This document shows, piece after piece, positions 21,287 through 64,000 of a stretch of 64,000 bases of DNA; position 1 is the first letter of the stretch, and each line of letters begins with the position of its first letter. The DNA is from Heterodontus francisci (taxonomy: Eukaryota), in the NCBI RefSeq assembly GCF_036365525.1, contig NC_090377.1, positions 103,492,265 through 103,556,264 of the forward strand, read 5' to 3'. The position numbers and the translations under genes were made by a program. The notes under the pieces were generated by a model. The model searched no databases. It was not told where the DNA came from and saw only the letters and a program-made list of their open reading frames with translations.

Positions 21287-22895
21287 CTAGAAATCCCTCA
21301 TACATCTGAAAGACCCGATAGTTGAGTTGTAGCCGCCCCAGTCACTGTATCTCCTGTATTCACCGGGTCTCATGAAGTACTGTCGGCCTCTGTAGTTGGG
21401 ATGTTCATAGAAGATCCAGTAACCGTCCATCACATGGCTGGAGTGAATATCACGGTAACGGAAACGATCAGAGACGGATGGGCAGTCATCCTGGAATTCC
21501 ATCATCTGTCCTCCAAAGTCAGGCCTCTCATAAATCTTCATTCTGTAGGAGCCTCCCCTGTACTGTAATAGAAATGAAATGACATTAGTGATAAAACTGC
21601 AAATATACATTTGGTATATGTAGAAAAAGAGAAACTTTGTAAAGGAAGGAATCTAATGGGGCCCAATGACGACATCAACAATGAGAGCAAAGCTGAGATG
21701 ATTTATTCACATCGATTCAATAGGTTAATTATGTTTGAGACTTGTTAACAGCAAGCAGCTTCGGCAATTTTATACTAAATCAGTGAATTATCTGTAATAG
21801 TGTACATTGGACTGATATTAGTTGGTGCATGCAGGTGGAGGTTTATCAATATCAATAAAAATCTAAATGTTATTCTAGTTCCCACTGTGATGAGGTTCCT
21901 TCTCTGTGTGGAGCAGCTTTATCTTTCCTACAATTAAAGTAAGACGAATGGGGTGGGTGCAAACATGTCTGTCAGCACGTTGTAGCCAGTCATAGAGTCA
22001 TTCAGCCCATCAAGTCCATGCTGGCTCTCTACAGAGCTATCTAGTCAGTATCACACCCCCATTCGATCCACACCTTAGTCTAGCTGCAGATGAATTTATT
22101 ACTTCCTACACTGTCAATGCTCCAATTTGGCTTTTGGTTCTGAATATCTGATTAATTATGAACAAATGCATCCAATTATATCTCAGATATTCAGGACTTT
22201 GCAATCGGCGACCATCGTACGACACTTAGAACTTCCTTCCCAGTTGATGCAATTATTGACTTAAGAACCAACCTGCATAAGTTAACTGCAGGTACAAAAT
22301 TACAAGGGCTGATGGTTAATTTCTGGCAGTGCCACAAATGGGTGGTAGTGGATCAGTAAATCAGGCAGGATGTGTGACAGGCAGACAATCCACGACCTGT
22401 TAATCACCACCGCTGAAAGTTAAAATCAGTCCTGTGGAAACAGCTGATAACTCTTCACTGCTGATGCACAGAAACTCAAATGTCACTGATCATTTTCGAA
22501 GTGTCAGTTTGGGTAGAACATCTAAGCCACCAAAGGTAACTCACATATGGGTAGCTGCGACATGACCTGATGCTGTCATTGAATCCCATCCAGCGCTGGT
22601 AGTCAGGATATTCGCCCCTGCTCAGAACATACTGGTATCCCATGTAATTGGGTCTCTCATACAGCACCCACCAGTCACTGTCAACACGGATGGAGTTACA
22701 GCGGCTGAAGTAAGAGTGCAGGTCAGCACAGTCACTACTGCACTCATAGTGCTGACCCTGGAAGTTCCTGTCCTCGTAAAAGATAATCTGTGGAAAGACA
22801 TAGGTTTGTAAATTCATAATTTCTCAAACTTGGCAATACTGGATGAAGAATTCCAATACAATATATAAACTCTGTGTTTTCCTTACCTTTCCCAT
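21287..22895 (-). CDS. Gamma-crystallin gene 1 (shark gamma-crystallin S-1-like / gammaM-type), 175 aa
   Basis: Exons 22887-22895 (MGK|GTAAG), 22545-22787 (243 bp, [11 protein letters not shown]...[15 protein letters not shown]), 21287-21562 ([21 protein letters not shown]...SFRCMRDF*); GT-AG phase-0 introns; four Greek-key motifs. Confidence 0.96.
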
Positions 22896-22955
22896 TTTGA
22901 GATCACAGTTAGCTTGTAACTAGCTGAATGTTTCACTGCTTCACACAGCTTGGTA

Positions 22956-23045
22956 TTTATATGTTGGGTAAAATGGCTTTACTGAGCTCTTCTTTTGTTA
23001 TTTTAATGATTGCAATGGTTTGAAATCAGCATAAAAGCAGCAAAA
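22956..23045 (-). promoter_or_regulatory. Crystallin proximal promoter: TATA box, Sox-like site, Maf half-sites
   Basis: TATAAA 22956-22961; CTTTTGT 22992-22998; TTTTATGCTGA 23026-23036; second Maf-like half-site at 22978-22986. TATA repeated at 32455, 41971, 50106, 61870. Confidence 0.65.
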
Positions 23046-23747
23046 CACATGACATATACACTCATTGTAAAGAAAATGAATTTAAGGCACCTATGTCCCA
23101 TTGATTGCATTTTGCCTTCATGTCTTTTTAATTGTGTGACAATACATTGGAAGCCATTGTGCTCCCTACACTCTGCTTCCACTGAAATTCTCAAACAGTT
23201 GTCATTGCACATTCAACCAGGTATTTTTCCAGCATTTCAGTGTAATGGCTGAAGTTTACTCCAAAACTGGTCAAAATGCAGGTGTACATATCCAGAACAA
23301 GTTGCTTTCTACATAATCGACAGAAGTATAACTGTCTGTGTATTTAGATTTGAGAATGTGCTTCAAAGTTCATGAGCTTTTATCACTGCATGTATTTATT
23401 TGGTGACATTGCCACTGCAATTTTGAGGGTGGTATTTATTGACACCGGTCACAGCCCATTCACGGTTTCATATTTTAATCAGCGATATTTTGTTATGTAC
23501 TACCTTTCACTTTGTTATAAATTTCAGTTTTGCTGAAGTCATATCAGAACAGTAAAGAGGATAATAGAAAGGCAGATGGTCGTGTAATCAAAATAATTTG
23601 TAGAATGTGCATACTGGGGGAGGGTAGTTGGATTCTTTAGTGGGTACTAAATAAAAAGGAGAAAAGAGACTCTGGGATGACCCTGTTCAAGGGATACAAA
23701 TCAATTGCAATCTAATACATTTTTGACATAATCACAAATATGCTTAC

Positions 23748-61809: not shown

Positions 61810-62661
61810 TTTGAGATCACAGTTAGCTTGTAACTAGCTGAATGTTTCATTGCTTCACACATCTTGGTATTTATATGTTGGGTAAAATGGCTTTGCTGAG
61901 CTTTTCTTTTGTTATTTTAATGATTGCAATGGTTTGAAATCAGCATAAAAGCAGCAAAACACATGACATATACACTCATTGTAAAGAAAATGAATTTAAG
62001 GCACCTATGTCCCATTGATTGCATTTTGCCTTCATGTCTTTTTAATTGTGTGACAATACATTGGAAGCCATTGTGCTCCCTACACTCTGCTTCCACTGAA
62101 ATTCTCAAACAGTTGTCATTACACATTCAACCAGGTATTTTTCCAGCATTTCAGTGTCATGGCTGAAGTTTACTCCAAAACTGGTCAAAATGCAGATGTA
62201 CATATCCAGAACAAGTTGCTTTCTACATAATCGACAGAAGTATAACTGTCTGTGTATTTAGATTTGAGAATGTGCTTCAAAGTTCATAATCTTTTATCAC
62301 TGCATGTATTTATTTGGTGACATTGCCACTGCAATTTTGAGGGTGGTATTTATTAACACCGGTCACAGCCCATTCACGGTTTCATATTTTAATCAGCGAT
62401 ATTTTGTTATGTACTACCTTTCACTTTGTTATAAATTTCAGTTTTGCTGAAGTCATATCAGAACAGTGAAGAGGATAATAGAAAGGCAGATGGTCGTGTA
62501 ATCAAAGTAATTTGTAGAATGTGCATACTGGGGGAGGGTAGTTGGATTCTTTAGTGGGTACTAAATAAAAAGGAGAAAAGAGACTCTGGGATGACCCTGT
62601 TCAAGGGATACAAATCAATTGCAATCTAATACATTTTTGACATAATCACAAATATGCTTAC

Positions 62662-63580
62662 TGTCATGAAGATCCCCACCTGCCAAGAATGAGGCATATT
62701 AATTTCATCATCTGAACATTAATTTTTAAACTGTTGCTGGAGTGAAGAAATTACTTTTTAAAAAGCGATAACCAGACACTTGGCTGGAGGACATTTGCAT
62801 ACTAAGAGACAGTGCTTCGAGATATAAAAAAATGCTCACTGTTTCAATTAACAGAGATTGGGCTGGGTAATGATGATCCACATCTTGTCAGGGTAAGAGA
62901 CAGCACTACACCCCCCAAACAAGAGCTTTGGAATCCACAAAGGTAAGAGTGGTTATGATCGCTGGTCACATGACTAACCGGCTGGTCCAGGCTTTTTGAA
63001 CGAGACACAGGGCAGTTTGAATTCAGACTGCAGATTGCAACTGAACCTGGAACAAGAGTGCTTCTCTCTTGGCTGGCTCTCTCTCGCTTTCTCACAAGCC
63101 TCCAGACACACTGAAAACACATAAACCTCAAGAGAGAAAAGACTCCGCCATCGAAACAAGTTAAAGCATGCACTGGGCCCCAACGACCAGCAAGACTTAC
63201 CGGCAACCAAAGTCTTCACATTGAACTCAAAAGACCATAAATAACTACCAGATATTGCCTCAAATGTTTCCCATTTATTCCTTCTACTTTTTCTGTCTCT
63301 ATCTGCGTGTGTGTTTATCGCGTATGCATGCGAGCGTGGTCGCATTGTGTATTCGTAGCCATTACCCAAATTAGTGTTTAAGATTAATAACTTCCATCTT
63401 TCTTGTCTAAATCTTATAAAACCTGTCTGATTTATTTGCCTTACAATTGGAAAACAGTGAACAAGGAGTCACTGAAGGGGAGTTAAAATACGATGTTTTT
63501 AAAATTAAATCTTGTCACAGTGAGACCAGGCAAAGGATGAGAGGGAACACCTGGACCCCCATCTCAACTGGTCATAAACA
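62662..63580 (+). mobile_element. Solo LTR (unit copy 5)
   Basis: Duplicate of 23748-24668. Confidence 0.62.
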
Positions 63581-64000
63581 AAAATAGAATAAAAGCAAAG
63601 ATCCCAGTGACTGGGAAAGATACAAAGAACAGCAAAGGATGACAAACCAGACAGTAAGTGCTACAAAAAATAAGCACGAAAAGAAACTTGTAAGGGATAT
63701 CAAGATCAAAACAAAAATGTGTCATGTAGTGATTGATTGATTAGTCTGTCCATTGATCAGTATTCACTGTGTTTGATTGCTTAAGCCTATGGTTGGAGCT
63801 GAAGAGTTGAAACTGAAACCAAAAGATACAGAGCTAAAATGTTTTACAAAACAGAGACTGTTCAGGAGAAGACATGTACCTTGTAAGAGGTACCTTGTAA
63901 GACCTTGTAAGAACTGAGATATTTTAAAGTCCTGTAAATAAACCAGTTGGTGGTTTAATAGTAGTGTGGTATCTGCATTGCTCTGAGATAAATCAGATGT

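What the first reader, a model, noticed from the sequence alone, without database searches (positions are those of the whole stretch)
21287..64000. Recently amplified five-gene gamma-crystallin tandem array, each copy encoding a different protein
Seen: five 3-exon genes in ~9.5-kb units whose TE-filled spacers are nearly identical, so whole units were amplified recently, yet all five predicted proteins differ. Known: aquatic lenses rely on expanded gamma-crystallin families for high refractive index. Inference: a birth-and-death array caught mid-process, with genes 1-3 undisturbed and genes 4-5 hit by TEs.
Basis: partly seen in the sequence, partly recalled or inferred. Interest (0 to 1): 0.7.

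Follow-up and report, generated by a model that had tools for sequence, protein, structure and literature searches.

The report
Recombination-shuffled horn shark lens-gene array
Five near-identical, intact eye-lens protein (gamma-crystallin) genes sit head to tail in what is likely the horn shark genome, a real example of an already described kind of shark gene cluster, and their small protein differences likely come largely from copies swapping pieces and drifting rather than from new functions.

Summary
Observation confirmed: five intact 3-exon gamma-crystallin genes (minus strand, 175 aa, 2-14 aa apart) in 7.6-10.1 kb units that are 97-99.5% alike. Four match named Heterodontus francisci (horn shark) models exactly over exons 2-3. 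Contig depth in public runs tracks the assembled copy number (about 7 per copy; single-copy flank 5-10), so haplotigs are unlikely. The array belongs to the published chondrichthyan gamma-crystallin duplication hotspot (PMC11979771). The interpretation needs changes. The unit edge lies inside the gene's 3' end, within an older 85-88% duplicate, which points to unequal crossing-over. Copies are mosaics: 9 of 10 possible splits occur, gene 2 carries a gene-1-type tract of at least 73 bp, and gene 1's exons differ about 5x more than its non-coding DNA. Five different proteins are expected under weak constraint, and pN/pS is below 1. 'Recent' means millions of generations. No reading frame is broken. 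Gene 4 is the best dying candidate: a solo LTR between TATA box and ATG, plus G61S at the human CRYGD cataract glycine. The scan noted a similar skate array on other DNA. Ordinary; interest low.

The parts
17751..21250 (.). Older paralogous 3' flank of gene 1 (shares TE fragments with spacer 27317-30750 at 85-88%); the pre-existing homology in which the unit boundary lies
   Evidence: blastn 17751-21400 vs 27317-30900, 84.5% over 3,686; 11.5-11.8% divergence over 19648-21240
21287..22895 (-). Gamma-crystallin gene 1 (exons 22887-22895, 22545-22787, 21287-21562); edge copy with GGYNST C-terminal type
   Evidence: identical to H. francisci model P0122 (XP_067891906.1) over residues 4-175
22954..22961 (-). 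TATA box of gene 1; the same box lies at 32453, 41969, 50104 and 61868 (59 nt from the ATG, 638 nt in gene 4)
22896..30786 (.). Unit 1 promoter, TE-rich spacer and 3' flank of gene 2; repeated at about 98-99% in the following units
30787..32394 (-). Gamma-crystallin gene 2 (exons 32386-32394, 32044-32286, 30787-31062)
   Evidence: identical to P0128/P0046 over residues 4-175
30763..30835 (-). Gene-1-type tract in gene 2 (last 16 codons and start of 3' UTR): 17 consecutive informative sites group genes 1+2 against 3-5
   Evidence: U1 positions 21263-21335, offset 9500
40303..41910 (-). Gamma-crystallin gene 3 (exons 41902-41910, 41560-41802, 40303-40578); GASCST type
   Evidence: identical to P0121 (XP_067891912.1) over residues 4-175
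45029..45036 (.). Junction of a 1,960-bp spacer deletion in unit 3, at an 8-bp microhomology
47859..49466 (-). Gamma-crystallin gene 4 (exons 49458-49466, 49116-49358, 47859-48134); private Y46F, G61S, D110E; candidate dying copy
49484..50057 (+). Solo-LTR-like insertion (TG..CA, 5-bp target duplication) between TATA box and ATG of gene 4; likely antisense to the gene; adds 8 upstream ATGs on the gene strand
   Evidence: empty site seen in contigs of 3 of 4 runs (joint 49475-50055)
57950..61809 (-). Gamma-crystallin gene 5 (exons 61801-61809, 59207-59449, 57950-58225); intron 1 enlarged to 2,351 nt
   Evidence: identical to P0227 (XP_067891915.1) over residues 4-175
59526..61767 (-). 5'-truncated LINE (RT + zf-RVT, 673-aa open frame 59798-61816, polyA tail, two AATAAA, 10-bp target duplication), sense to gene 5 in intron 1
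61810..64000 (.). Promoter and start of the unit-type spacer of gene 5, cut by the window end
   Evidence: 97.8-99.5% to the other units

Best explanation
This is a real five-copy tandem array of intact lens-type gamma-crystallin genes in the known shark gamma-crystallin cluster, likely amplified by unequal crossing-over that began between an older pair of neighbouring genes and likely kept mosaic since by exchange of sequence between copies. Shown: five intact genes; whole ~9.5-kb units copied; the edge of high identity falls in the last codons and 3' UTR of gene 1, inside 3.5 kb of older homology; the variant patterns fit no single tree; gene 1's exons differ from the other copies about five times more than its non-coding DNA. 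Inferred: a misaligned crossover between an old left gene A and right gene B made a hybrid unit (B 3' flank and last codons, A body, promoter and spacer) that then multiplied; gene 2 took the A-type tail by conversion or a second crossover; exons also exchange with more distant cluster members. Inferred function: gene dosage of lens structural protein, with loosened constraint on each redundant copy. Gene 4 is likely muted (LTR in the 5' UTR with 8 upstream ATGs) and drifting; gene 5 may still be spliced normally.
For: Gene anatomy, PF00030, best solved relative gamma-B, not gamma-S. Gene 1 vs gene 3 differences per 100 bp fall from 14-18 (20700-20999) to 8, 4, 7, 14 (tract), then 4, 2, 2 from 21400 on; older homology 17751-21250 includes shared TE fragments. 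69 informative sites give 9 of the 10 possible 2|3 splits, 1,241 of 2,346 pairs incompatible, adjacent same-split 29 vs 12.5 by permutation (p=5e-5; without the tract 13 vs 7.4, p=0.02). Gene-1-private sites: 10 of 477 coding vs 12 of 3,258 non-coding (p=1.6e-4); S21, Y29, L45, Y156, GGYN of gene 1 recur in another H. francisci model, P0126, and the two group at SH-aLRT 83. Both tail types are old: WGGYNSTI in 13 of 77 other chondrichthyan models, WGATCSTI in 5 of 77. pN/pS 0.28 overall, 0.18 in the tract, 0.51 outside it. Depth per assembled copy 7.0-7.2 (X1, 4 contigs) and 6.3-8.0 (X4, 3 contigs) against single-copy 10.3 and 5.1. Cluster, dosage view and absence of positive selection in catshark: PMC11979771.
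Against: The right end, where the predicted B gene with its own promoter should lie, is outside the window and no genome is held. The boundary is a taper, not one step, so several events are needed. Outside the tract replacement sites are as variable as non-coding DNA (13 of 377 vs 103 of 3,258, p=0.76), and several changes hit residues nearly fixed in 77 other shark models (F29, S/D115, S117, C171 seen in 0 of 77), so new mutation contributes too and selection for diversity is not excluded. Five sequences give little power; recurrent CpG change (4 of 20 coding sites) can mimic some incompatibility. The single-copy depth differs twofold between runs (10.3 vs 5.1), and the tool warns that contig depth is no copy number. 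No expression data for these copies.
Confidence: 0.75

Rival explanations
1. Pure birth-and-death: units duplicated once each, then diverged independently; genes 4 and 5 are being killed by their insertions.
For: Every copy has private changes; gene 4 has an LTR in its 5' UTR, 3 private replacements where 2.9 are expected without constraint, G61S where 187 of 187 stored homologues have G, and no matching named model among those listed (only 15 members per cluster were shown).
Against: Non-tree-like site patterns and the 17-site tract; exon-biased divergence of gene 1; all frames intact; gene 5 has a matching model and only 4 private non-coding sites.
Confidence: 0.12
2. The copies are kept different by selection, because a mixture of slightly different gamma-crystallins resists crystallisation or phase separation (polydispersity).
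For: Replacement sites are not depleted against non-coding sites; several array-specific residues are unusual among sharks; the idea was argued for toothfish (review PMC13643694, passages).
Against: pN < pS in all partitions; among genes 2-5, 7 replacement sites vs 10.5 expected at omega 1; catshark tests were non-significant (PMC11979771).
Confidence: 0.08
3. Assembly artefact: haplotigs or false duplication of one or two real units.
For: Copies are 97-99.5% alike; no listed contig spans a unit; with X1's baseline alone the average would be about 3.5 copies per haplotype.
Against: Five distinct sequences 0.6-1.9% apart with copy-specific insertions and target duplications; depth proportional to assembled 31-mer multiplicity, r=0.99 and 0.98, about 7 per copy against a pooled single-copy value of 7.7.
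Confidence: 0.05

Closest known systems
Chondrichthyan gamma-crystallin 'duplication hotspot' cluster (Mayeur et al. 2024, PMC11979771; section 15 read whole, discussion passages)
   Same: Tandem, near-identical, lineage-specific gamma-crystallin copies in a shark; 40 genes in 1 Mb in catshark, species clades of 16-30 copies; no positive selection; candidate recent pseudogene.
   Different: Another species (horn shark is not among the species named in that section). Here the unit, its boundary inside the gene, the mosaic pattern and two insertions are resolved at base level; the words 'gene conversion' occur 0 times in that paper's main text.
NCBI models of Heterodontus francisci 'gamma-crystallin S-1-like / M2-like' (XP_067891906.1, XP_067891902.1, XP_067891912.1, XP_067891915.1)
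   Same: Identical to genes 1, 2, 3 and 5 over residues 4-175: these genes are already annotated.
   Different: The names are misleading (neither gamma-S nor Met-rich gamma-M by the tests below); no model matching gene 4 was among those listed.
Mammalian CRYGA-F cluster with gene conversion (Plotnikova et al. 2007; seen only as a title in the reference list of PMC11979771, text not held)
   Same: Same gene layout (9-nt first coding exon, one domain per exon; layout recalled) and, by its title, conversion between gamma-crystallin genes.
   Different: Mammalian genes are old with unrelated spacers (recalled); here whole 9.5-kb units are 98% alike.
Human CRYGD G61C congenital cataract (PMC2268897, listing; PMC3105094, passages)
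   Same: Gene 4's G61S falls on the same glycine (ungapped alignment of exon 2 to mammalian gamma chains; numbering with the start Met).
   Different: Ser, not Cys; one of many copies; effect on the shark protein untested. The paper places G61 at the surface, with loss of stability but no change of fold.

Membership tests
Gamma-crystallin (two-domain, CRYGA-F-like) | Two beta/gamma-crystallin domains | tested here: met
   PF00030 on exon 2 and exon 3 of gene 1, E 3e-31 and 1e-33; the other four are 92-99% identical
Gamma-crystallin (two-domain, CRYGA-F-like) | Three exons: 9-nt first coding exon, one domain per large exon, no N-terminal arm (feature recalled) | tested here: met
   9+243+276 nt, start MGK, in 5 of 5 genes
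Gamma-crystallin (two-domain, CRYGA-F-like) | Abundant expression in lens fibre cells | not testable with these tools
   No eye RNA run of this species was listed
Gamma-S crystallin (as the NCBI names suggest) | N-terminal arm, closest to gamma-S, single gene outside the cluster | tested here: not met
   No arm; exon 3 matches gamma-B at E 4e-51 and best gamma-S at 1.4e-42; catshark crygs is one gene 2 Mb away
Teleost gamma-M crystallin | Methionine-rich (PMC13643694); loss of conserved Trp (recalled) | tested here: not met
   9 Met of 175 (5.1%), Trp at 42, 43, 69, 133, 159 in 5 of 5; no numeric threshold was taken from a paper
Chondrichthyan gamma-crystallin hotspot cluster | Copies form a species-specific group within the shark clade | tested here: met
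   Genes 1-5 plus two H. francisci models group at SH-aLRT 91 in a quick protein tree of 56 chosen rows; careful search unfinished, 27 of 53 inner branches open
Chondrichthyan gamma-crystallin hotspot cluster | Many further gamma genes on the same chromosome | tested here: met
Chondrichthyan gamma-crystallin hotspot cluster | Synteny with eya4-like and crygs | not testable with these tools
   No genome held; no such gene looked for beyond the window
Chondrichthyan gamma-crystallin hotspot cluster | No positive selection among recent copies | tested here: inconclusive
   pN/pS 0.28 (0.51 outside the tract), but replacement sites as variable as non-coding; five sequences only
Birth-and-death multigene family | Copies diverge independently (tree-like) | tested here: not met
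   9 of 10 splits, 1,241 of 2,346 pairs incompatible, clustered tracts
Birth-and-death multigene family | Dead or dying copies present | tested here: inconclusive
   No broken frame and no other crystallin remnant in the window (tblastn); gene 4 suspect

The most novel reading that the evidence does not exclude
Gene 4 encodes a destabilised crystallin (G61S, the glycine whose change causes dominant cataract in human CRYGD) that survives only because an LTR in its 5' UTR mutes it: a transposon acting as a suppressor of a dominant-negative lens allele, in an array where exon exchange could otherwise spread that allele to live copies.
Probability: 0.1. Interest if true: 0.6.

Novelty: new member of a known kind. 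Interest (0 to 1): 0.27.

Why it matters
It adds a base-level view of how the known shark gamma-crystallin hotspot likely turns over: whole units multiply by crossing-over inside the gene, and exons keep exchanging. That matters for reading published trees, since species-specific clades of near-identical copies can reflect homogenisation as well as recent birth, and for dating. It gives copy-specific markers and one testable mutant copy (gene 4). It does not reveal a new kind of gene or mechanism, and four of the five genes are already annotated.

Tried and rejected
Whole genome: none held, so the right end and synteny stay open. First exon extraction had off-by-one limits and crashed; corrected. 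RNA: no RNA holder listed; run X13 (RNA is a guess, same sample as X1) gave next to no cover over the exon bins (0, 0.38, 0), which says nothing on expression. Run X5 (another organism label, RNA a guess) has deep contigs over the exons and loose ends that continue from exon 2 into exon 1: this fits the exon structure in a relative, not expression of these copies. The insertion junctions of genes 4 and 5 and the deletion junction were not among the rows shown (tables cut), so whether they are fixed or polymorphic is unknown. Summed bin depth was not used for copy number because repeats and overlapping contigs inflate it; only the 15 listed contigs with no other letters and no gaps were used (X2 and X3 left out as near-duplicates of X1). 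Tandem Repeats Finder shows nothing relevant. Search 'Heterodontus' + 'crystallin' gave 20 papers, 15 listed, none on lens genes by title; search on gamma-crystallin with conversion or concerted evolution listed 20 of 1,201, none containing 'gamma-crystallin'; 'gamma-crystallin, shark, tandem' gave 15, 12 listed. Plotnikova 2007 not held. Supplements of PMC11979771 (figs 21, 22) were not opened and may bear on which species were covered. No fold or complex prediction was run: the fold is known and no binding is claimed. Rejected: gamma-S and gamma-M membership; five different proteins as evidence of new functions; gene 5 as shown dead.
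Full report
What is there. A self-comparison shows four full units and the start of a fifth spacer between about 21250 and 64000, 97-99.5% alike over blocks of 2-16 kb. Each carries a minus-strand gene of 9 + 243 + 276 coding bases with GT..AG introns of 99 and 981-982 bases (2,351 for intron 1 of gene 5), giving 175 residues without stop or frameshift in 5 of 5. The two large exons of gene 1 each hit PF00030 and the best solved relative of exon 3 is gamma-B crystallin. Stop-to-stop spacings are 9500, 9516, 7556 and 10091. The short unit lost 1,960 bases at an 8-base microhomology; the long one gained a 574-base TG..CA element with a 5-base target duplication, 12 bases upstream of the gene-4 ATG. 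Gene 5 holds a 5'-truncated LINE with reverse transcriptase and zf-RVT domains, a polyA tail and a 10-base target duplication, sense to the gene. No other crystallin exon lies in the window (tblastn). The proteins differ pairwise by 2-14 residues at 16 positions.

Whose it is. Homologue searches returned shark gamma-crystallins. Named Heterodontus francisci models are identical over residues 4-175 to gene 1 (P0122), gene 2 (P0128, P0046), gene 3 (P0121) and gene 5 (P0227). So the window is very likely horn shark and four genes are already annotated. No listed model matches gene 4, but only 15 members per cluster were shown.

Is it an artefact? Contigs of four coded DNA runs of one sample were laid on 44001-64000 and two of them on 9001-24000. 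For the 15 listed X1 and X4 contigs with no differences from the window I compared depth with the mean number of times their 31-mers occur in the window. Array contigs give 7.0-7.2 per assembled copy in X1 (4 contigs) and 6.3-8.0 in X4 (3 contigs); single-copy flank gives 10.3 (5 contigs) and 5.1 (3 contigs), pooled about 7.7; r = 0.99 and 0.98. A haplotig artefact would give about half the single-copy value. The baseline is noisy, the tool warns that contig depth is no copy number, and the sample may be the assembly's source, so this argues against false duplication but says nothing about other individuals. An exon-3 contig has depth about 100, 13 times the baseline, as expected if many more paralogues share exon sequence.

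How it likely arose. The left flank 17751-21250 is an older copy of the spacer end 27317-30750: 84.5% over 3,686 bases to 21400, shared repeat fragments included, and 11.5-11.8% diverged over 19648-21240 while genes 2-5 differ there by 0.5-1.3%. Gene 1 vs gene 3 differences per 100 bases run 14, 18, 16, 8, 4, 7, 14 from 20700 to 21399 and then 4, 2, 2. The edge of the young unit therefore lies in the last codons and 3' UTR of gene 1, inside pre-existing homology. That is what unequal crossing-over between two older neighbours A and B predicts: gene 1 is A, and inner copies are hybrids with B's 3' end and A's body, promoter and spacer (inference). The predicted terminal B gene would lie right of 64000 and could not be checked. 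The taper means more than one event.

The copies are mosaics. Of 69 informative sites in 21000-25075, 9 of the 10 possible 2|3 splits occur (a tree allows 2), 1,241 of 2,346 pairs are incompatible, and like splits cluster (29 adjacent vs 12.5, p = 5e-5; without the main tract 13 vs 7.4, p = 0.02). Seventeen consecutive sites (21263-21335) put genes 1+2 against 3-5, while gene 2's further flank is of the inner type: a tract of at least 73 bases. Codons 160-175 differ by 27.5% between the two types, with pS 0.77 and pN 0.14, and both tail types exist in other sharks (WGGYNSTI 13 of 77, WGATCSTI 5 of 77 models), so this is old variation reshuffled. Gene-1-private sites are 10 of 477 in codons 1-159 but 12 of 3,258 in non-coding DNA (p = 1.6e-4) and 5 of 1,080 in introns (p = 0.004). 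Several of its residues recur in another H. francisci model, P0126. This fits exon-limited exchange with members outside the array (inference; direction unknown).

Selection. Mean pN/pS is 0.28 for all codons and 0.51 for codons 1-159. Against my reading: outside the tract, replacement sites are as variable as non-coding sites (13 of 377 vs 103 of 3,258, p = 0.76), synonymous sites more so (7 of 100, p = 0.044), and F29, S/D115, S117 and C171 occur in 0 of 77 other chondrichthyan models. So new mutation under loosened constraint contributes, and selection for diversity is not excluded. Among genes 2-5 there are 7 replacement sites against 10.5 expected without constraint (p = 0.40); 3 are private to gene 4 against 2.9 expected.

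Age. Mean non-coding divergence is 1.54% (0.61-1.90%). At 7e-10 per base per generation, measured in the epaulette shark (PMC10587355, passages; 95% CI 1.4-14.1e-10), that is about 11 million generations (5.5-55 million by my arithmetic on the CI), 4.4 million for the closest pair. The rate is from another species and exchange lowers divergence, so this is a rough floor.

Are genes 4 and 5 dying? Not shown. In gene 4 the TATA box is 638 instead of 59 bases from the ATG; the insert carries 8 ATGs on the gene strand, all opening frames of 5-64 codons, and no AATAAA on that strand, so translation is predicted to fall. Gene 4 also has G61S, where 187 of 187 stored homologues of 150-260 residues have G (these include redundant isoforms). 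Exon 2 aligns without gaps to mammalian gamma chains, so this is the glycine of human CRYGD G61C, which lowers stability and causes dominant cataract (PMC3105094, passages). The simplest order is insertion first, drift after. In gene 5 the LINE brings two AATAAA (59539, 59557) shortly before the acceptor, which could end transcripts early, but splice sites and frame are intact and it has few private changes.

What is known. Mayeur et al. 2024 (PMC11979771; section 15 whole, discussion passages) describe 40 gamma-crystallin genes in 1 Mb of the catshark, species clades of 16-30 copies in four chondrichthyans, a candidate young pseudogene, no positive selection, and call it a duplication hotspot kept for protein quantity. 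A Squalomix preprint lists the cluster among known elasmobranch tandem arrays (10.1101/2025.06.08.657570, passages). In a quick tree of 56 chosen rows the five genes group with two H. francisci models (SH-aLRT 91; careful search unfinished). The genes fail tests for gamma-S and for Met-rich gamma-M despite their database names. I found no paper on the horn shark cluster in searches; the library lacks most subscription journals. An earlier, unreviewed note of this scan reports a skate array with homogenised exons on other DNA; I had reached my reading before seeing it and do not count it as support.

Verdict. Real, correctly seen, already annotated in large part, and a new member of a published kind. 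What this study adds is the likely hybrid origin of the unit, the mosaic pattern and one suspect copy. Interest 0.27.

Noticed in passing
window minus strand 23880, 33379, 42895, 51030, 62794: Named H. francisci isoforms that begin MSSSQ (P0046, P0123, P0130, P0227) match a short ATG..CAA|GT exon about 985 bases upstream of the normal ATG in every unit, inside a high-copy repeat: a possible transposon-derived alternative first exon. For gene 4 it would bypass the LTR-hit exon 1. Support for the models was not seen.
   Followed up: partly
window 59526-61767: The LINE in gene 5 has a 673-aa open frame and summed contig depth of 2-6 x 10^5 at 97% likeness or more: a young, very abundant, probably active family.
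   Followed up: no
window 49484-50057: The solo-LTR-like element has one copy in the window, but summed depth near 1,500 in its bin, so it belongs to a multi-copy family; TATA-like boxes on both strands at 49895-49897.
   Followed up: partly
window 1440-2738: A 433-aa open frame of a reverse transcriptase (PF00078), CR1-like by recall.
   Followed up: no
window 16501-17122 and 25227-25869: Inverted 78% match between a left-flank repeat fragment and a fragment in each spacer; also 8260-8672 vs 18665-19074 inverted at 77%.
   Followed up: no
window 28841-29173 and its copies: The end of the spacer is identical in units 1-4 over more than 300 bases, though the neighbouring 3' flank differs by about 1%: possibly a recent homogenisation tract.
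   Followed up: no
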